Source of the DNA: Candidatus Enterousia sp.
GTDB taxonomy: Bacteria; Pseudomonadota; Alphaproteobacteria; Rs-D84
Direction: 5' to 3'
Assembly: GCA_045617905.1 (NCBI GenBank)
Contig: JAZLJO010000005.1
Span: forward strand, 18,211-82,210
DNA length: 64,000 nt
Shown: one piece after another, positions 7,620 through 38,527 of the stretch
How positions within the stretch are numbered: the first letter of the stretch is position 1
How the letters are laid out: each line of letters opens with the position of its first letter
Position numbers and translations under genes: made by a program
The notes under the pieces: generated by a model
What the model was told of the DNA's origin: nothing
Seen by the model: the letters and a program-made list of their open reading frames with translations, nothing else
Database searches by the model: none

Positions 7620-10600
7620 TTATTTTGATACTAAATCAATCAAATTCGCATAATTGTCAACAACATCATATTTTATATTTCCATTACTAATTAATGCAAA
7701 ATGTTTGCGTGCGCAATCTATTTTTGCTTTTTCTATGGGACGCAAATCCAATGTTTTCATTGACCCTTTGGTTTCTGCTATGAAATATACATGTTTTACC
7801 GTCCCCTGCTTAAATGCAATTGCCCAATCTGGATTATAATGGCCAACCGGTGTTGTTATATAAAAACCCTTTGGCAATTTGGCATATACGACAACTTCGT
7901 CATTTGTTTCCAATGCATTTGCCATTTTCTTTTCCGTATCAGAATCTGCAATAACATAATTGTAAATATGATTGTTTGGTGTTGATACTGTATTATCTGA
8001 GGTTCCTTTTAAATCTGGGTCTGTAAACACATCTGTATCATATTCTTCATCCAACAAATTATATGTCACGTGTTCTATGATTGCAGTGGCCTTTTGTTCA
8101 TTAATCAAATTTACTGTTTTTGCAATAAAATCTTCGGGGTTTTGTTTAAATTGTGCGAATTTATCCGCCGATATCCCCATCAAAATTTTTGCAACACATT
8201 TGCGGGTCAACCCTGTTCCTTCGACAATTTTACCAATTAAATCGTATTTTAATTGTATTTCTGCGTTTTCTATATTTTCACGTTTCGTTTTTGGGTCATC
8301 AAATGCGGTTCCCTTTGCTAAATTATCAACAGAATCTATTTTTTGCATTGTCCCACGTGTTATAACGGCAACCAATTTTGTTACATTTAATTTATGGTCA
8401 ATGGCATTAATTGCATTTTTTACCAATTCATCTGTTTCAAATTCAACGGTGTATGCGGTTTTTTTATTGATATTTTTCCATAATTCTTGGAATTCTTTTT
8501 TATCTAAATTTACTTTATTCAATTTTACCGCGATTTTAGTTTTATTTGCATTACCAATATCCATTGGTTTGTAAATACTGCCCAAAACGTGAACGATATC
8601 TTCTTGTTTGTATTCTGGGGATAAAATCAATGTACCTGACGCTAAATCCGATTGATATTTTTCTGTTAAATGTCCGCGGTTATCAATATAACCATTACTC
8701 ATTAATCCAAATAATATATTTTGTGCCTCAACCGCCGATAATGTATGTTTTTCGCCATTTGCCAAATGAACAATTTGATTTTGGAATAAATTTAATGTTA
8801 CCTCACGCGGGCGGTCTTTTAATTCTTCGGCCATATCTTTTTGCAGGGCCAGAACAAAATCCTGATACGATTCTGATGCAATAACCGTTAACACATTAAT
8901 TTTATGCACATCATCCAAAACGGCGGAATCCATTCTTTCACCATTTTGATTTACACACAGACGTAATCCACGACCAATTTCTTGGCGTCTGGATATATTA
9001 TTATTACTGTTTTTTAATGTACATATTTGGAACACATTTGGATTATCCCATCCTTCGCGTAATGCGGAATGTGAAAATATAAAACGAACCGGTTCTGTAC
9101 GTGATAATAACCGTTCTTTATTTTTCATAATTAAATCATACGCCCTGATATCATCATCACCAACAGATGTTTCTTTACTGTTTTTAAAATTACCTTTTTT
9201 GTCTTTGGCAAAATATCCCTGATGTGATGTTTGGGCATTTGTGGCATCTAAAAAATTCTTGTATTCGGGCCAACAATCCAATTCTTGTAATTTTTCTGAT
9301 TTCAAGATTTCGTATTCTTGTTCAAACATCTGGGCGTATTTACCCGTTGATTTATCATCTGGGCGATAATTTTCAACATCGTCAATAAAGAATAACGATA
9401 ATACCTTAATCCCTTTATTAAATAATTCTTGTTCTTTATTCAAATGGCAACGAATTGTTTCACGTATTTGAATTCTGCGCAATTGATCTGCATTTACATC
9501 ACCAACAACATCACCGGTAAATATTTTTGTACCATTTTGAAATTCGATAAAATCTTGATCTGCACGAATATTGGTTATAACCCAACCATTTTTATATTCA
9601 TCCAAATGTCCCGATTTTTCATACAAATTATGTCCGACATCAACAGTTATCATTTTTTTATTTGGACTGCCATTGGCGGTTTTATAATCAATTTCTATGG
9701 TGGCGGTCGGGTTTTTATCTTTGAATGTATTTATTTTTGATAAATATACATACCCAGATGTTGCAGAATTACCGGATACAGAAACACCACGAACCTCTAT
9801 CTTTTTTACCAATTTTTGATTATATGCATCCAGTGCATCTAAACGATATACCATATTATATGGTGTTCTGTGGGTGGCAGAATATCTTAACACAAACAGT
9901 GGTTGAAACTGTTTTAACATATCTTTGGCAACCACGCCTTCCATTGATTGTGGTTCATCCAAAATTATAATTGGGTTTGTTTTTGCAATAACATCAATTG
10001 GTTTTCGCCCCTTGAACGAATCCAATGCCATATTGATTCTGCGGGCATCTTTGCCACGTGCGGCAAATGCCTGGACATTGATAATCATACAATTGATTGT
10101 GTTACTGGTGGCAAAATTTTCAACATCCCCCAAACGGGCCGAATTATAAATAAAATATCTGACCTTTTTACCATATTCTTGTTGGAAATGATCGGCGGTT
10201 ATCTGAAATGATTTATTGACCCCTTCACGAATTGCCACAGATGGAACAACAATTATGAACTTTGTCCAACCGTATCGTTTATTTAATTCATACATTGTTT
10301 TGATGTATGTATATGTTTTACCGGTTCCGGTTTCCATTTCAACGGTTAAATTTAATCCGTCCCCTTCTAATTCTGATGATGGTTTAATCCCGGCCTGTAT
10401 TTGCAAATTACGCACAGAATCCAACAAATCGTTTTTTTGTTTATACAATTGTTGATTTGCAAATGCATCCAACATCAACAAATCTTGGACACGTGCGTTA
10501 TTGCCCGGATCCAATGTATATTTAAATGGACGGCTGATTGGTTGACCGGCGAACACATCACATACCGCATTACAGGCATCGGCCTGAAATTGTTGGTGTT

Positions 10601-10625
10601 TAAACTGTAATTTCATTTCTGCCAT
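7620..10625 (-). CDS. res: Type III restriction enzyme Res subunit (SF2 helicase plus PD-ExK nuclease)
   Basis: 1001 aa. Motif I METGTGKTYTY, motif II IIILDEPQSM, helicase C-terminal block SALREGWDNPNVFQI, C-terminal nuclease NPDWAIAF...FIAETKG. Lies 18 bp downstream of mod. Confidence 0.9.
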   Translation of the reverse strand: MAEMKLQFKHQQFQADACNAVCDVFAGQPISRPFKYTLDPGNNARVQDLLMLDAFANQQLYKQKNDLLDSVRNLQIQAGIKPSSELEGDGLNLTVEMETGTGKTYTYIKTMYELNKRYGWTKFIIVVPSVAIREGVNKSFQITADHFQQEYGKKVRYFIYNSARLGDVENFATSNTINCMIINVQAFAARGKDARRINMALDSFKGRKPIDVIAKTNPIIILDEPQSMEGVVAKDMLKQFQPLFVLRYSATHRTPYNMVYRLDALDAYNQKLVKKIEVRGVSVSGNSATSGYVYLSKINTFKDKNPTATIEIDYKTANGSPNKKMITVDVGHNLYEKSGHLDEYKNGWVITNIRADQDFIEFQNGTKIFTGDVVGDVNADQLRRIQIRETIRCHLNKEQELFNKGIKVLSLFFIDDVENYRPDDKSTGKYAQMFEQEYEILKSEKLQELDCWPEYKNFLDATNAQTSHQGYFAKDKKGNFKNSKETSVGDDDIRAYDLIMKNKERLLSRTEPVRFIFSHSALREGWDNPNVFQICTLKNSNNNISRRQEIGRGLRLCVNQNGERMDSAVLDDVHKINVLTVIASESYQDFVLALQKDMAEELKDRPREVTLNLFQNQIVHLANGEKHTLSAVEAQNILFGLMSNGYIDNRGHLTEKYQSDLASGTLILSPEYKQEDIVHVLGSIYKPMDIGNANKTKIAVKLNKVNLDKKEFQELWKNINKKTAYTVEFETDELVKNAINAIDHKLNVTKLVAVITRGTMQKIDSVDNLAKGTAFDDPKTKRENIENAEIQLKYDLIGKIVEGTGLTRKCVAKILMGISADKFAQFKQNPEDFIAKTVNLINEQKATAIIEHVTYNLLDEEYDTDVFTDPDLKGTSDNTVSTPNNHIYNYVIADSDTEKKMANALETNDEVVVYAKLPKGFYITTPVGHYNPDWAIAFKQGTVKHVYFIAETKGSMKTLDLRPIEKAKIDCARKHFALISNGNIKYDVVDNYANLIDLVSK

Positions 10626-10643: not shown

Positions 10644-12563
10644 TTATAATACGGTTATTTTTGTGTTTGGTGATATTGTTTTAAATATCTCTGTTACATT
10701 GATTTTACCCGGTGCATCGGCAAAGCATAAATCACGGAACACAACACGTAATGGTTTAATATTTGCAATTTCTTTGATAACAGATTCCGGTATATTTTGT
10801 TCAAAACATGCAACCAACGACGCATTATCAACATTAAAATATGTGATATTACCTGATTTTATATCACGCACATCCAAATCCAGTGTTAATCCCAAATCAA
10901 TCATAACCCCATATAATAAATCAAGCGGTGTGCGGTCTGATTTTATATTATCAACATTATCTAATAAACCCGTTTGGGTTGTGTTGGCGGGATTATAATA
11001 AACATCCTTCATATTGGTGTCATCCAATTTTAAAACCTTGAACCCAATATCCAAATCGGTCTTCCCGGTATCCGCAACAATTTTATCCCCAGCTCTTCTG
11101 ATTCTTTCTTTTGCTACCTCTGTAAGTTTATGTTCAACACCTAATTCATCACATAATGCTATGGCATTATTTATAGTATCTACTGTTGCACTTGTAGCTG
11201 TTCTTTTGTTTTTATCAAGATTTTCTGGCAATTGAATCATAATAAACCTTCTGTTTCCTCCATCTGTTGCATTTAGTCTAATAACAGCATCTGCAGTTGT
11301 AGAAGCCCCAGAAAAGAAATCCATAATCAATGCATCTGTTGTATTTGGTAACAAGTTTAATATAAACTTCAATAAAGAAATCGGTTTGGGATAATCAAAA
11401 ACTCTATTCACAAAATAATTTCCCAATTCTGCATTTGCAGACAAAACATCTCCCACTAAATCTGTTGGTATTATTTTTGTTGGTCTCAAACTAGTTTGTT
11501 GATATATTTTCTTATAGTATGGTATAAATGTAGCAGTCTTTATACACAAAAATACACCATTTTTTATTTCATTATCTAGATATTCTTGAGACCATTTAAA
11601 TTTACCAGATATAGTAAACTCATTTACTATGATTCCCCCTTGAATATTTAAATTATCATGTAAAATTACATCTCCTATATTACCAGCAGGATACATGCCA
11701 TCTGGCAAATTAGATTTTACATAACTCTTTGGAAATGATAATTTTCTTACACTATTGTTATTTTGAGTAAGAGAAGCTTCACCTTGGGGATCTTGCAACC
11801 TTTCAACAAGCTCTGGAATATTGTCCAAATTTTTAGCATACATTAGAATGTATTCTGCATTTTTTCTCACTAATTTTGACATGTTTGAAGGTCTAAAAAT
11901 ACTCTCCCATGTAAAACATTCTACAAAATTACTTTCCCCAAACACCTCATCACAAATTTTTTTCAAATTTGCCTGTTCATTATCATCAATTGATATAAAT
12001 ATAACCCCATCATCGGATAATAAATCACGGGCAACCTTTAACCGTGGGTATATCATCGAACACCAATTGGAATGGTATCTGCCATTGGATTCATCGTTTT
12101 TGAATAATCGTTCATTGGTATCAATATCACATTGCCCCTTTTGTTCCATATAATCTTTTTGACACATTGAAAAATCATCACAATATACAAAATCATTACC
12201 TGTGTTATACGGGGGGTCAATATAAATCATTTTAACTTTACCCAGATATGATTCCTGTAATAATTTTAATACATCCAGGTTGTCACCTTCGATATACAAA
12301 TTCTTGGTTGTATCCCAATTTTTTGATTCCGCCATGCACGGTCTAAGTGTTTTTCTGATTGGACTGGCCGCCCCCATTATTGCATCACGTTTACCGATCC
12401 ATGTGAAATTATATGATTCATTACCATCAACTAAATCGGGGGCTAATTCTTCTTTTAATCGTTCAAAATCAATTTTATCACCTTGGACTGCGGCCGGGCA
12501 CAGTTCTGCGATTTTTTTTAATACATTGTCCATTGGACGTGATTCCATTTTCAATTTATCCAT
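10644..12563 (-). CDS. mod: Type III DNA adenine methyltransferase Mod (beta-class N6/N4 MTase)
   Basis: 639 aa. Catalytic IYIDPPYNTGNDF precedes SAM-binding MDFFSGASTTADA. N-terminus ...IDFERLKEEL...YNFTWIGKRDA is typical of Type III Mod. Confidence 0.9.
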   Translation of the reverse strand: MDKLKMESRPMDNVLKKIAELCPAAVQGDKIDFERLKEELAPDLVDGNESYNFTWIGKRDAIMGAASPIRKTLRPCMAESKNWDTTKNLYIEGDNLDVLKLLQESYLGKVKMIYIDPPYNTGNDFVYCDDFSMCQKDYMEQKGQCDIDTNERLFKNDESNGRYHSNWCSMIYPRLKVARDLLSDDGVIFISIDDNEQANLKKICDEVFGESNFVECFTWESIFRPSNMSKLVRKNAEYILMYAKNLDNIPELVERLQDPQGEASLTQNNNSVRKLSFPKSYVKSNLPDGMYPAGNIGDVILHDNLNIQGGIIVNEFTISGKFKWSQEYLDNEIKNGVFLCIKTATFIPYYKKIYQQTSLRPTKIIPTDLVGDVLSANAELGNYFVNRVFDYPKPISLLKFILNLLPNTTDALIMDFFSGASTTADAVIRLNATDGGNRRFIMIQLPENLDKNKRTATSATVDTINNAIALCDELGVEHKLTEVAKERIRRAGDKIVADTGKTDLDIGFKVLKLDDTNMKDVYYNPANTTQTGLLDNVDNIKSDRTPLDLLYGVMIDLGLTLDLDVRDIKSGNITYFNVDNASLVACFEQNIPESVIKEIANIKPLRVVFRDLCFADAPGKINVTEIFKTISPNTKITVL

Positions 12564-12747
12564 TGATTTTCCCCTTTAATTCGGTAATTTTGTGCTTGAT
12601 TTCAATTTGTTTATTTAATTGCGTTTCTGCACGCATTTTTGATATCAAATATGACGTAGTAATGGCCAGTTTAGACTTCTTTTGAATCTGCTTTTCTAAA
12701 TCATCCCGTAATACAGATGTTATATTATCAAACGTTTTTACCGCCAT
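12556..12747 (-). CDS. Small (63 aa) predicted coiled-coil protein, translationally coupled to mod
   Basis: ATG at 12747 is preceded by GGTGGGG. The stop overlaps the mod start by 8 nt. Charged helical sequence MAVKTFDNITSVLRDDLEKQIQKK... The longer 99-aa ORF-track version looks like an upstream over-extension. Confidence 0.4.
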   Translation of the reverse strand: MAVKTFDNITSVLRDDLEKQIQKKSKLAITTSYLISKMRAETQLNKQIEIKHKITELKGKING

Positions 12748-13083
12748 TGTCCCCACCAAAAATAAACTTTTAACGAACGTTAGATTTTTATATCTGTATT
12801 GCAATGGCCCCCGTTCTGCAACGGGGGGACGGTGGGGCTGCAATATCGTTGTCAAAACTGCAAAAACACCGGTAATTTACATGTTGTTTATTGTTTTTAT
12901 TGATAAAACACCGTTGGCATGTTATAAATAAATTCGAATAAATAATAATCGTTGGTTAGATTTTTACACAGTCAACCCAAAATAACATATTGTTTTTAAT
13001 ATGATTTATATGTTTCTTTTCTGAACATCAACAAAAACGTAAATAACATTAAAGATAACCACCCTGTGATAAAAATTAAGACC

Positions 13084-13117: not shown

Positions 13118-13182
13118 AATATCGGTGAATATTTTATTCATTCCACCAACACACAAATTTATTGTTAATCGGTACAAACATA

Positions 13183-13788
13183 TCAAAATTTACGTTTTAA
13201 ATTTTTGATATGTTTGTTTAGTGTTGGAATACTTACTTTTAATTTCTTGGCTAATTTTATTTTACACACACCATTTGCCAATTGTTTATTGATAAATTTT
13301 GTTTTGCCGTCCAATTTATGTTTTTTATTTTTACTGCCGAATTTGCGTCCTAATTTTTGTCCCGCCGCACGTTTGGTAGCCAATGCATCTTTGGTTCGTT
13401 GGCAAATTAAATTGCGTTCAATTTCCGCCGACAATCCAAATGCAAACGCCAAAACCTTGGATTGTATATTATCCCCTAATTCATAGCCCTCTTTTACGGT
13501 GTATAATTTTGCCCCCACATTCATACAATATTCCAATATACGCATTATCATAAATAATTTACGTCCCAAACGGGACAATTCACTGCATATAATTACATCA
13601 CCGGATTTTAAATGCCGTAACACCCCACCCAGCGCACGTTGTTCCGGTTCACGGGTTCCAGATATCCCCGCATCTTCGATATACATATCAATATGTACAC
13701 CCAATGCGGCCGCACGGGTTTCAATGCCTATTTTTTGATTTTCACAATCCTGTTTGTCTGTTGAAACACGAATATATCCATATATCAT
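13183..13788 (-). CDS. Serine recombinase (resolvase/invertase family) with C-terminal HTH
   Basis: 201 aa. N-terminus MIYGYIRVSTDKQ (catalytic Ser), ...SELSRLGR..., C-terminal basic HTH-like tail. Confidence 0.9.
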   Translation of the reverse strand: MIYGYIRVSTDKQDCENQKIGIETRAAALGVHIDMYIEDAGISGTREPEQRALGGVLRHLKSGDVIICSELSRLGRKLFMIMRILEYCMNVGAKLYTVKEGYELGDNIQSKVLAFAFGLSAEIERNLICQRTKDALATKRAAGQKLGRKFGSKNKKHKLDGKTKFINKQLANGVCKIKLAKKLKVSIPTLNKHIKNLKRKF

Positions 13789-36488: not shown

Positions 36489-36743
36489 TTATTCAACCCA
36501 AATGGTCGCAAAGGTGGTAGATGTTTCGCCACCAACGGGTATTTTATTCAATTCGTCTTTTTTTGCATATGTTTCTGTTATCTTATTACCATCAGAATCC
36601 TTTGCGGCTTTACCGGCAAACGCCTGATTTTCGTTGGTAAAATGTTCATTAACAAAGTCTGCGGATGCAATATCTGCATTTGCATTTGATGCAAATATTG
36701 TAACCCCCAGCACAGATGCAAAAAATAATAATTTGCGTTTCAT
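36489..36743 (-). CDS. Small secreted protein, IAS-x-x-(Y/F)-VNE family
   Basis: Signal peptide followed by ANADIASADFVNEH, the same post-signal motif as the next gene. Confidence 0.5.
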   Translation of the reverse strand: MKRKLLFFASVLGVTIFASNANADIASADFVNEHFTNENQAFAGKAAKDSDGNKITETYAKKDELNKIPVGGETSTTFATIWVE

Positions 36744-36776
36744 TATGTTTTTACTGTATTTTTGTTATTACTTCTA

Positions 36777-36813
36777 CTTGTGATTGCATTGTTCACACAT
36801 ATGCAATCACAAG
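36777..36813. repeat. 13-bp perfect inverted repeat (CTTGTGATTGCAT-11 nt-ATGCAATCACAAG)
   Basis: Read directly from the sequence, in the intergenic region between two paralogous secreted-protein genes. Confidence 0.5.
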
Positions 36814-36840
36814 ATTTATTTTTATACAACGTATTTGAAA

Positions 36841-37200
36841 TTATTCGCCGGTAGTACTACGTGTAATGTCTTCCCAAACCAAGGCAGAACCGTTATATTT
36901 CAAAACACAATCAGTACAATTTTCACTTCCACGAATACTGTTGACTAACTCGGCTGTGATTCCAGAATTTACTGCATCCAATTGATCTTGAGTCAAAGCA
37001 TCTTGTTTGCCTTCCAAATCACTTTTATCTGCTTTGTCTTCCAATTCACTTTTATCTGCTTTGCCTTCCAATTCTGTTGTTGTTACCATATCTTTCGTTT
37101 TTTCATTAACATATGCTTCAGATGCAATATTTGCATGTGCGGCGTTTACGGTTACAACTGTTAATATTGCGGCAAATATACCTGCGGTTAATTTTTTCAT
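36841..37200 (-). CDS. Secreted coiled-coil protein with KADKS(D/E)LE repeats
   Basis: Signal peptide, AHANIASEAYVNEK, 9-aa repeats, and C-terminal CTDCVLKYNGSALVWEDIT shared with the 406-aa paralogue. Confidence 0.55.
   Translation of the reverse strand: MKKLTAGIFAAILTVVTVNAAHANIASEAYVNEKTKDMVTTTELEGKADKSELEDKADKSDLEGKQDALTQDQLDAVNSGITAELVNSIRGSENCTDCVLKYNGSALVWEDITRSTTGE
37009..37074. repeat. 27-bp tandem repeat (about 2.4 copies) inside the coding sequence
   Basis: G(C/T)CTTCCAA(A/T)TCACTTTTATCTGCTTT repeated. It encodes LE(G/D)KADKS(E/D). Confidence 0.85.
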
Positions 37201-37306: not shown

Positions 37307-38527
37307 TTAATAATTTCCGTTTTCATCTGACGTTACCACAGTCCATTTTAGTTTATCGCCCTGAACTGATAATACACACAACCCATCATCACATTTGTCC
37401 GGTTTATTCGGGTCTGTTTGCAAAAATTCCGCTATTTTTTGTGCAATCTCACTGCCCTGTTGCAATGTTATCTGATCAACTTTATTAGCAATATCTTCAA
37501 CATCAGATTGATTTGCTTTGGTCTTCAATTCTTCTTTGGTCGCAGCGTCTGTAATTCCATACCCCGCCAATGTTGTGGCTCTATCTGCCTTGTCTGCCAA
37601 TTTGGTATCCATTTCAGATTTTGTATAGGCAATTTCTTTTATTGCATTGTCAATCAAATCATTCATTTGATCCATATCAACTTCGCCCGGTTCACCCTTT
37701 TCACCACGAATATCCGCCAATGCAATCAATTCACGTTCATCCGTTTCATCAGAATACCGCCATGTCAAATGTGTATCATTTTTACCCAATACAATTTCAC
37801 GACCATCGACCCCTGCACCGCCCGCCGTGCCAATCGCACCCTTTAATTTTTCAACATCTACATATATTTCGCCATTTTCAATTATTATGTATCCGTCCGA
37901 TGCGTTTAAAGAATCCTGTTTTGAATCCAATTTAGATTTAATTTGATCGACATCGGTTTTATCCGCCTTGGCATCTAATGCCGTATTAACATCGGTTAAA
38001 TCTGGGTTTATATCTTTGACGGCATCTGCAATTTTATCCGCAATATCGTCCGCATCTACCTTGGTTTCTAATATTTTATCAATTTCGTCTAATTTTTTAT
38101 CCACATCATCTTTGGTATAGATGTTATTTTTTATATCTTGGTTTATTTCATTAATATTTTGTTCGATTTTATTTACCGTTGTTGCGTTTACTGCATTTGT
38201 TACGGTCTGATTTTTAATAGATGCACCACCTACAACCGATTTACCACCACCCAAATATTTACCAACCGACAAACGGTTTGTTGCGGTTTGAACCGTATTA
38301 TTATTTTTTGATGTATTGTTTACAGATTTTACATTGGTTGTAATTGGCGAAACCGATGTATTTAAACGCATTGTCGCACCACGTGCCGCATTTATCGCAG
38401 ATGACGTGCCATTATATGTTCCCGCACCGCCCAATTGACGAACCGTTGGGGCGGCCGCACGTGCGGATGCCGGTATAAATGCAAACACCGCACACATCAT
38501 TGACAAGATATATTTTACCGATTTCAA
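37307..38527 (-). CDS. Secreted tail-fibre-like/coiled-coil surface protein
   Basis: Signal peptide, many (K)ADK(T/A)D(V/L) heptad-like repeats, short collagen-like GEKGEPGEV, and KADRATTLAGYGITDA, a motif common in phage tail fibres. TTG start per the ORF track. Confidence 0.6.
   Translation of the reverse strand: MKSVKYILSMMCAVFAFIPASARAAAPTVRQLGGAGTYNGTSSAINAARGATMRLNTSVSPITTNVKSVNNTSKNNNTVQTATNRLSVGKYLGGGKSVVGGASIKNQTVTNAVNATTVNKIEQNINEINQDIKNNIYTKDDVDKKLDEIDKILETKVDADDIADKIADAVKDINPDLTDVNTALDAKADKTDVDQIKSKLDSKQDSLNASDGYIIIENGEIYVDVEKLKGAIGTAGGAGVDGREIVLGKNDTHLTWRYSDETDERELIALADIRGEKGEPGEVDMDQMNDLIDNAIKEIAYTKSEMDTKLADKADRATTLAGYGITDAATKEELKTKANQSDVEDIANKVDQITLQQGSEIAQKIAEFLQTDPNKPDKCDDGLCVLSVQGDKLKWTVVTSDENGNY

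What the first reader, a model, noticed from the sequence alone, without database searches (positions are those of the whole stretch)
11075..12012. Mosaic mod gene: a ~940-bp central block with a single CpG and foreign codon usage
I found only one CG dinucleotide (near 11382) between about 11075 and 12012. The flanking parts of the same ORF carry roughly one CpG per 20-30 bp (for example 4 in 12001-12060). Inside the block Arg is encoded by AGA (RIRR = AGA ATC AGA AGA) and CTN/AGC/TAG-containing words are common. The rest of the window prefers CGT and TTA/TTG. The block spans Mod residues about 185-497, meaning the target-recognition region plus the FxGxG SAM-binding motif. The DPPY motif and both termini look native. 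This points to a recent recombinational swap of the specificity-determining portion from a CpG-depleted donor. Such swaps change the methylation/restriction specificity of the whole system. TRD shuffling among Type III mod alleles is established in other bacteria, but it would be new for this lineage.
Basis: seen in the sequence. Interest (0 to 1): 0.65.

Follow-up and report, generated by a model that had tools for sequence, protein, structure and literature searches.

The report
Swapped specificity cassette in methylase gene
The middle ~890 bp of a restriction-system DNA methylase gene in an uncultured horse-gut bacterium was copied in from a relative whose DNA almost lacks CG; this is a well-known way for bacteria to change which DNA sequence the system marks and cuts, seen here with unusually sharp edges.

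Summary
There is one CG between 11074 and 12013, against about 25 expected (P≈4e-10). The next-poorest 938-bp stretch of the window has 15.

The block is also the only part of the 64 kb with a normal AG/CT frequency (o/e 0.95). The host genome strongly avoids AG/CT (o/e 0.40). A composition scan places the foreign segment at 11091–11978/11993, which is Mod residues ~191–491: the target-recognition domain, the FxGxG motif and a linker.

The gene is a Type III mod, followed by an intact res. Its sister genome (a horse-faeces Alphaproteobacteria MAG, 96–98% identical in the flanks) has a different CG-free middle with different breakpoints. Gut metagenomes with conspecific flanks lack this block, and one carries 909 other bases in the same slot.

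The block's dinucleotide signature matches contigs that carry an orthologous SNF2–DUF4391–Mod–Res island and are almost CG-free (o/e 0.02–0.04). No near-identical donor was found; the best match to the recognition domain is 70% amino-acid identity.

Verdict: this is allelic cassette exchange by homologous recombination, as known from Haemophilus, Neisseria and Helicobacter. It is a new member of a known kind. The two extreme genome signatures remain unexplained. The window's right junction could not be checked with reads.

The parts
10644..12563 (-). mod: Type III R-M methyltransferase, 639 aa, intact ORF
   Evidence: ORF and translation. PF01555 N6_N4_Mtase, 99 bits. PDB hits to Type III Mod 6K0W (E 4.5e-62) and EcoP15I Mod 4ZCF (E 2.6e-48). 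These align residues 46–247 and 374–562 but not the recognition domain.
11091..11978 (-). Imported central cassette, Mod residues ~196–491: target-recognition domain, motif I (FFSGAS, 11301–11318) and a variable linker up to KERIRRAG. The high-coordinate edge is uncertain within 11976–12013.
   Evidence: It is the maximal donor-versus-host composition segment of the whole window: 93.7 bits, against 19.7 for the next segment and 17.6 for the maximum in host-model simulations. A second training set gives 11091–11993. A contig in run X1 joins 11090 to 11976 with 909 other bases between, and a contig in X3 diverges at 11090. CpG o/e is 0.05 and AG/CT o/e is 0.95.
11979..12563 (-). Native 5' part of mod, including DPPY (motif IV) at 12207–12218
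   Evidence: 95–100% nt identity to L001 over gene nt 1–420. Host-type composition. A contig in run X2 covers 11925–12245 with 1 difference, across the junction.
10644..11090 (-). Native 3' part of mod
   Evidence: 92–100% nt identity to L001 from gene nt 1531 onwards. Carries CG at the host rate and has host-type composition.
7620..10625 (-). res: Type III restriction subunit, 1001 aa, 18 bp downstream of mod
   Evidence: NF012027 Type III endonuclease over its full length, E 2e-115, below the curated cut-off. Pfam ResIII and RE_endonuc. Host-type composition. 97.8% nt identity to L001. 81% aa identity to the Res of the CpG-free contig.
12556..12708 (-). Remnant of a DUF4391 gene (C-terminal ~50 codons), overlapping the mod start by 8 nt as intact DUF4391 genes do in related islands
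   Evidence: 52% identity to the C-terminus of L145 DUF4391, E 9e-11. blastn homology to L086 runs to 12642. Related loci have the order SNF2–DUF4391–Mod–Res.
13183..13788 (-). Serine recombinase (Mpi-type invertase family) upstream of mod. It is a neighbour and is probably not part of the mechanism.
   Evidence: NF009949, 257 bits, just under the cut-off of 272. Pfam Resolvase. It sits at the same place in L001. No inverted repeats or silent cassettes lie around mod.

Best explanation
The window carries one allele of a multi-allelic Type III restriction-modification locus, mod then res. The locus is a truncated SNF2–DUF4391–Mod–Res island in an uncultured horse-gut alphaproteobacterium.

The central ~890 bp of mod (11091–~11978) was replaced by homologous recombination. 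The crossovers fell in the conserved sequences on either side: the ...SIDDNE.../ICDEVFG region and the KERIRRAGDK region. The incoming piece was the matching part of a related mod gene that had long resided in a genome or mobile element almost free of CpG and with normal AG/CT.

The replaced piece encodes the target-recognition domain, the SAM-binding FxGxG motif and a variable linker. In Type III systems Res finds DNA only through Mod. The swap is therefore expected to change both the methylated motif and the restricted motif.

**Shown:** the mosaic structure, the breakpoints, the foreign composition of the block, the native composition of the ends and of res, polymorphism of this slot among conspecific strains, and the existence of a matching CpG-free gene pool.

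**Inferred:** the recombination mechanism, the direction and recency of the transfer, and the change of specificity.
For: **Discontinuity and composition.**
- Both signatures change sharply at the same place.
- Codon usage differs between block and host.
- Markov likelihoods fit the block best to L086/L089, 92–99 bits better than to the host. The mod ends and res fit the host or L001. All ten symmetrised dinucleotide values of the block match L086/L089.

**Sister genome L001.**
- The locus is syntenic.
- The Mod ends are 96–98% aa identical and the recognition domain is 27% identical.
- Its own CG-free block lies at gene nt ~404–1559, so its breakpoints differ.

**Conspecific strains.**
- Runs X1–X4 cover the flanks at 95–99+% identity and have depth 0 over the block. 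One X1 contig puts 909 other bases in its place.
- Run X1 holds L001's mosaic allele with 0 differences in junction-spanning contigs at uniform depth. Run X4, from another study, holds it too.

**Wider family.**
- The same backbone occurs with more than 12 different recognition domains (P0002, P0005–P0018, P0021). Domain types are also shared between backbones, for example P0008/P0023, P0012/P0046 and P0009/P0028.
- L086 and L089 are 99% identical except for ~800 bp of mod.
- Within the block's conserved parts the window is as close or closer to L086 (0.87–0.97) than outside the block (~0.80).

**Precedent.** Mosaic mod alleles with a hypervariable centre and a conserved res are described in PMC1557822. 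Recognition-domain movement in methyltransferases is described in PMC3077401 and PMC3983042.
Against: - No donor with a near-identical cassette was found. The best recognition-domain matches are 70% and 67% aa, on CpG-replete contigs L082/L083. Nothing closer turned up in JGI metagenomes, IMG/VR or PLSDB.
- No indexed sequencing run holds the block. The window's right junction at 11091 is therefore not confirmed by independent reads or contigs.
- Methylation specificity was not measured.
- The 886–938 bp block gives limited power to tell a donor at CpG o/e 0.02 from one at ~0.13. Jointly with L001's block, o/e 0.13 gives p=0.057 and o/e 0.2 gives p=0.004.
Confidence: 0.85

Rival explanations
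1. Assembly chimera. The metagenome assembler stitched the middle of another organism's mod gene (a CpG-free relative in the same sample) into this contig through the conserved sequence on both sides.
For: - The window protein is known from a single contig.
- No indexed run holds the block.
- Mod genes of this family share 60-nt stretches at 97–100% identity between lineages.
- Several alleles coexist in one sample.
Against: - The analogous mosaic of the sister genome is reproduced with 0 differences by an independent assembly, at uniform depth across both junctions, and is seen in a second study.
- A contig in run X2 spans the window's left junction (11925–12245) with 1 difference.
- The reading frame and all motifs are intact.
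- The ambiguity zone at the right junction is only ~16 nt. This is short for a k-mer bridge, although identical sequence could extend further.
Confidence: 0.07
2. Change in place. The block lost CpG and gained AG/CT within this genome through local mutation or selection, for example selection on the recognition domain, without any transfer.
For: The sister genome's different recognition domain is also CG-free. This could suggest a property of the locus.
Against: - Two independent signatures change at the same sharp borders.
- The block's protein is unrelated to the sister allele but related to alleles on other backbones.
- Conserved amino acids at the block's edges are encoded differently from the sister genome (nt identity 0.73–0.87 with 8–10 of 10 aa identical).
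- Conspecific strains have other sequences in the slot.
- Across about 40 family loci, mod CpG simply tracks the host.
Confidence: 0.02
3. Programmed switching by the neighbouring serine invertase. Recognition-domain cassettes are exchanged with silent copies by site-specific inversion, as in phase-variable Type I hsdS loci.
For: An Mpi-family serine recombinase lies 620 bp upstream of mod in both the window and L001.
Against: - There are no inverted repeats flanking the block and no silent mod fragment within 8.5 kb.
- The composition scan finds no second donor-like segment anywhere in the 64 kb.
- The recombinase next to the CpG-free island is only 31% identical and lies elsewhere in the locus.
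- There are no simple-sequence repeats in mod.
Confidence: 0.03
4. The whole mod–res module is a recent arrival, and the 'native-looking' ends merely come from a third donor that is compositionally similar.
For: The locus is a truncated form of an island that elsewhere lies next to integrases.
Against: - The mod ends and res fit the host's very unusual AG/CT-poor signature as well as housekeeping genes do.
- The module sits at the same chromosomal site, between miaB and the recombinase/tatC side, in the sister genome.
Confidence: 0.03

Closest known systems
modA allele families of Haemophilus influenzae and pathogenic Neisseria (Type III mod with a hypervariable central region; Bayliss et al. 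2006, PMC1557822; survey by Atack et al. 2018, PMC5909438)
   Same: - The 5' and 3' thirds of mod are conserved, res is conserved, and the central region encoding the recognition domain is hypervariable.
- Mosaic alleles have breakpoints next to the variable region.
- Cassettes are shared across species boundaries.
   Different: - This gene has no simple-sequence repeat tract, so there is no sign of phase variation or a phasevarion.
- The exchanged piece extends past FxGxG through a second variable linker.
- Donor and recipient differ so much in dinucleotide usage that the borders can be read directly.
- The lineage is an uncultured gut alphaproteobacterium.
Target-recognition-domain movement ('DoMo') and allelic recombination in Helicobacter pylori methyltransferases (Furuta et al., PMC3077401, PMC3983042)
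   Same: Recognition-domain sequences move between homologous methyltransferase genes by recombination in flanking conserved sequence, and this changes methylation specificity.
   Different: In H. pylori the exchange is mostly within one species and was verified by methylomes. Here it is between compositionally distinct lineages and the specificity is untested.
EcoP15I / EcoPI Type III R-M (PDB 4ZCF)
   Same: - The domain order is DPPY, then recognition domain, then FxGxG.
- Sequence homology covers the catalytic and C-terminal parts.
- A res gene with helicase and endonuclease domains lies immediately downstream.
   Different: The recognition domain is unrelated, and the module descends from an island that elsewhere also has SNF2 helicase and DUF4391 genes.

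Membership tests
Type III R-M Mod (beta-class N6-adenine methyltransferase) | N6_N4_Mtase catalytic domain | tested here: met
   PF01555, 99 bits against a cut-off of 26.7, residues 110–443.
Type III R-M Mod (beta-class N6-adenine methyltransferase) | Motif IV (DPPY) lies N-terminal to motif I (FxGxG), with the recognition domain between them | tested here: met
   DPPY at residue 116 and FFSGAS at residue 416. PDB Type III Mods align on both sides of residues 248–373.
Type III R-M Mod (beta-class N6-adenine methyltransferase) | Sequence homology to experimentally characterised Type III Mod subunits | tested here: met
   6K0W Mod at E 4.5e-62 and EcoP15I Mod 4ZCF at E 2.6e-48.
Type III R-M system | Co-oriented res gene immediately downstream, with a superfamily-2 helicase domain and a C-terminal endonuclease domain | tested here: met
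   7620–10625, 18 bp after mod. NF012027 matches over its full length (E 2e-115; 387 bits, below the cut-off of 564). Pfam ResIII and RE_endonuc.
Type III R-M system | m6A methylation of one strand of a short asymmetric motif, with ATP-dependent cleavage | not testable with these tools
   No methylome or biochemistry is available.
Multi-allelic mod locus with recognition-domain cassette exchange | Conserved ends and a hypervariable centre among closely related genomes, with res conserved | tested here: met
   Window against L001: ends 96–98% aa identical, recognition domain 27%, res region 97.8% nt identical. Runs X1–X4 hold the flanks without the block. L086 and L089 are 99% identical except for the recognition domain.
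Multi-allelic mod locus with recognition-domain cassette exchange | Incongruent relationships of the centre and the flanks | tested here: met
   The nearest relative for the flanks is P0002 (96–98%). The nearest for the recognition domain are P0004 and P0003 (70% and 67%), whose flanks are only 52–69% identical.
Phasevarion (phase-variable mod) | Simple-sequence repeat tract in or just upstream of the mod ORF | tested here: not met
   Tandem Repeats Finder found only four weak two-copy arrays and no repeat tract.
Invertase-driven specificity shufflon (as in Type I hsdS) | Inverted repeats and silent cassettes near an active gene and a recombinase | tested here: not met
   A recombinase is present, but there are no flanking inverted repeats or silent copies and no second donor-like segment in the 64 kb.

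The most novel reading that the evidence does not exclude
The cassette may trace ongoing gene flow between two related gut lineages, or their mobile elements, that live under opposite and extreme short-motif avoidance. One has almost no CpG (o/e 0.02–0.04). The other strongly avoids AG/CT except in CAG/CTG (o/e 0.40; GAG/CTC 0.09).

In the host, the avoidance holds at every codon position and on both strands. In both lineages, orthologous Res proteins that are 81% identical have been fully recoded. The cause could therefore be an undescribed genome-wide pressure that reads 2–3-nt motifs, such as a nuclease, a DNA modification, or a deamination and repair regime, rather than ordinary codon bias.
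Probability: 0.2. Interest if true: 0.7.

Novelty: new member of a known kind. Interest (0 to 1): 0.4.

Why it matters
Exchange of the recognition cassette changes what a Type III system methylates and cuts. That in turn changes phage resistance, barriers to gene flow between strains, and possibly gene regulation.

This case shows the process in an uncultured gut alphaproteobacterium. Several alleles coexist among conspecific strains, and in one case within a single sample.

Donor and recipient genomes use dinucleotides so differently that the breakpoints are visible to within about 15–35 bp without any phylogenetic modelling. This makes the locus a convenient natural marker for recombination tract length and for gene flow between lineages in gut communities.

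The two extreme genome signatures that make this possible are themselves unexplained and may merit their own study.

Tried and rejected
**Search for a donor.**
- A protein search with the block alone returned only shorter, more distant proteins of at most 57% identity.
- JGI metagenome contigs gave a best hit of 52% over part of the block.
- IMG/VR gave nothing.
- PLSDB plasmids gave at most 38%.

**Search for the source sample.** No indexed run holds the block, so the junctions could not be checked with reads.

**Co-occurrence of the CpG-free element with the host.** One guessed DNA pattern was my own error and matched nothing.

**Identity of the CpG-free element.** Its 867-aa protein has no match in the plasmid or phage collections.

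**Low-GC Clostridia or Campylobacterales as donors.** They are CpG-poor (0.13–0.5), but they fit the block 13–24 bits worse than L086/L089. A donor CpG o/e of 0.2 is rejected jointly for the two blocks at p=0.004.

**Invertase-driven switching and phase variation.** Both were considered and rejected.

**Failed script.** One script call returned no answer and was repeated.

Full report
**1. The observation**

The ORF at 10644–12563 (minus strand, 639 aa) is followed 18 bp downstream by a 1001-aa ORF at 7620–10625. CG dinucleotides occur at 11073, 11382 and 12014 and nowhere between. That is one CG in 938 bp.
- About 20.5 are expected from the block's own base content. About 24.8 are expected at the window-wide CpG o/e of 1.21, giving a Poisson P(<=1) of 4e-10.
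- The two longest CG-free gaps in the 64 kb, 632 and 309 bp, are both in this block. The third longest is 218 bp.
- The next-poorest non-overlapping 938-bp window has 15 CG, and the median is 38.
- GpC is normal in the block.
- Arg codons in the block are 0 CGN / 13 AGR, against 748 / 81 in 45 host ORFs (Fisher p=2e-13).

**2.

The host genome strongly avoids AG/CT.
- The o/e is 0.40 over the window, with sd 0.09 in 900-bp windows.
- The avoidance holds on both strands and at codon positions 1-2, 2-3 and 3-1.
- The avoided unit is DAG/CTH: GAG/CTC is 0.09, TAG/CTA is 0.20 and AAG/CTT is 0.36. CTAG is 0.03 and AGCT is 0.08. CAG/CTG is spared at 1.07.

The block is the only place in the window with normal AG/CT (0.95). 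I scored every position for a CpG-free contig model against the host model. The maximal segment of the entire window is 11091–11978, at 93.7 bits. The next segment scores 19.7 bits, and the largest in 30 host-model simulations scores 17.6. A second training set gives 11091–11993.

The imported piece therefore spans Mod residues ~191/196–491. It contains the recognition domain, motif I and a variable linker that ends at KERIRRAG.

**3. What the gene is**

Mod carries PF01555. It aligns with solved Type III Mod subunits, 6K0W and EcoP15I 4ZCF, on both sides of residues 248–373 but not across them. Res matches the Type III endonuclease model over its full length and has the ResIII and RE_endonuc domains. 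There is no repeat tract in mod.

The last ~50 codons of a DUF4391 gene survive just upstream and overlap the mod start. Related loci have the order SNF2 helicase, DUF4391, Mod, Res, often beside integrases. The window's locus is therefore a truncated island of that type.

**4. Comparative evidence for cassette exchange**

*The sister genome.* The nearest homologue, P0002, lies in a syntenic locus of a horse-faeces Alphaproteobacteria MAG (GCA_024402715.1; L001/L002). The shared neighbours are tatC, an M23 peptidase gene, the recombinase, miaB and gatB.
- Flanking DNA is 96–98% identical, so the two are the same species or nearly so.
- The Mod ends are 96–98% identical, but the recognition domain is only 27% identical.
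- L001's middle is also CG-free, and its borders differ: gene nt ~404–1559, against 571/586–1473 in the window.
- Between the two sets of borders, identical amino acids are encoded differently (nt identity 0.73–0.87).

These are two independent imports into the same slot.

*The wider family.* The same backbone occurs with more than a dozen unrelated recognition domains (P0005–P0018, P0021). The window's domain type recurs on other backbones (P0004 at 70%, P0003 at 67%, P0020 at 63%).

*Conspecific strains.* Four gut-metagenome runs hold the flanks at 95–99+% identity but have zero depth over about 11090–11976.
- One contig in run X1 joins 11090 to 11976 with 909 other bases in between.
- A contig in run X3 diverges at exactly 11090 into sequence that encodes EIGKERIRRA with CGC and CGT codons.
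- A contig in run X2 covers 11925–12245 with a single difference, so it spans the window's left junction.
- Run X1 reproduces L001's mosaic allele with no differences in junction-spanning contigs at uniform depth. Run X4, from another study, holds it as well.

**5. Where the block came from**

Across about 40 family loci from many phyla, the CpG content of mod tracks that of the host flanks. Only the window and L001 have CpG-rich ends with a CpG-free middle.

Two Logan contigs, L086/L145 and L089, carry an orthologous island. Their Mod ends are 84–86% aa identical to the window's, and Res is 81% identical. They are almost devoid of CpG. L145 has 14 CG in 14,059 bp against 334 expected, and uses 154 AGR against 5 CGN for Arg.
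- The block matches these contigs in all ten symmetrised dinucleotide values.
- It fits their non-mod sequence best under first- and second-order Markov models. The fit is 13–18 bits better than to the next-best source under either model, low-GC Clostridia included, and 92–99 bits better than to the host. The mod ends and res fit the host.
- In the conserved parts of the block, nt identity to L086 rises to 0.87–0.97, against about 0.80 outside.
- L086 and L089 are 99% identical to each other except for ~800 bp of mod. The same exchange therefore operates inside the CpG-free pool.
- Taken together, the window's and L001's blocks reject a donor CpG o/e of 0.2 (p=0.004) and are compatible with 0.02.

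The actual donor was not found. The taxon of the CpG-free contigs is unknown.

**6. Mechanism**

The best explanation is homologous recombination between the resident mod and an incoming related mod. The crossovers fell in the conserved segments that bracket the variable region. The incoming gene was probably on an integrative or plasmid-like element of the SNF2–DUF4391–Mod–Res type.

Type III Res recognises DNA only through Mod; this is established knowledge of the family. The exchange should therefore retarget both methylation and restriction.

The lack of any amelioration towards the host's strong biases, together with polymorphism among conspecific strains, argues that the event is recent. 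These last points are inferences.

**7. Rivals**

*Assembly chimera.* This cannot be excluded for the window's right junction, because no available run holds the block. It is unlikely given the verified sister mosaic and the independently observed left junction.

*Change in place.* This is contradicted by the two coincident signatures, the unrelated protein sequence and the population polymorphism.

*Invertase-driven switching.* There are no inverted repeats and no silent cassettes.

*Phase variation.* There are no repeat tracts.

**8. Comparison with what is known, and novelty**

This is the phenomenon described for H. influenzae and Neisseria mod alleles (PMC1557822, PMC5909438) and for H. 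pylori methyltransferases (PMC3077401, PMC3983042). It is a new member of a known kind.

Three things are unusual: the sharpness of the compositional borders, the evidence that the same slot was refilled independently in sister genomes, and the nature of the two genomes involved. A survey of more than 15,000 bacterial genomes reports TpA as the most depleted dinucleotide and CpG as the most dispersed (PMC11282364). These signatures are unexplained and are recorded separately.

**9. Verdict**

Interest is moderate.

Noticed in passing
window 1-64000 (all but 11091-11978); also L001/L002: The host genome avoids AG/CT throughout (o/e 0.40). GAG/CTC is 0.09, TAG/CTA 0.20, CTAG 0.03 and AGCT 0.08, while CAG/CTG is spared (1.07). 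The avoidance holds on both strands and at all codon positions, including the 3-1 junctions. Apart from L001/L002, none of the ~85 other loci from many phyla examined here goes below 0.73. I know of no mechanism.
   Followed up: partly
L086, L089, L145 (Logan contigs of SRR21150888 / SRR21150908): These contigs carry SNF2–DUF4391–Mod–Res, a resolvase and an 867-aa protein with no database match. They are almost CpG-free: 14 CG in 14,059 bp against 334 expected, at 31% GC. That is well below the low-GC Clostridia loci in the same data set (0.13–0.23). The taxon and the cause are unknown.
   Followed up: partly
window 12556-12708 (-): The C-terminal ~50 codons of a DUF4391 gene survive upstream of mod. 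The locus is a truncated form of the SNF2–DUF4391–Mod–Res islands seen in relatives.
   Followed up: yes
window 13183-13788 (-): An Mpi-family serine invertase or resolvase gene lies 620 bp upstream of mod, and at the same place in L001. No target inverted repeats were found near mod. An 18-nt perfect-ish palindrome (13174-13191 / 13200-13217) sits at its 3' end.
   Followed up: partly
window 12800-12836: A GC-rich hairpin (CCCCCGTT-CTGC-AACGGGGG; RNA fold z = -3.0) shows 3–5 times the contig depth of its surroundings and many different flanking sequences in runs X1–X4. It is therefore a dispersed repeat in these genomes. The window has only one copy.
   Followed up: partly
L088 5001-8866: Two complete mod genes with different recognition domains (P0007 and P0012) lie in tandem ahead of a single res gene.
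   Followed up: no
L034, L040, L043 (Anaerophilus and Clostridium loci): These show the reverse mosaic. The mod ends have 0–2 CG, like their CpG-poor hosts (o/e ~0.2). The middle has 9–11 CG (o/e 0.5–0.6). This suggests recognition-domain imports from less CpG-depleted donors.
   Followed up: partly
window 36489-37200 (-), and 37307-38527 (-): This is a cluster of small signal-peptide proteins with a shared N-terminal motif (NA.A.IAS..(F/Y)VNE), one also carrying KADKS(E/D)LE(D/G)K-type repeats. They are followed by a 406-aa protein with similar repeats. It is the second most AG/CT-rich region of the window (o/e 0.56–0.65; 19.7-bit segment).
   Followed up: no
runs X1: One gut sample holds at least two conspecific strains with different mod alleles. 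The L001 allele is at depth ~19, and a 909-nt alternative is at depth ~7.
   Followed up: partly
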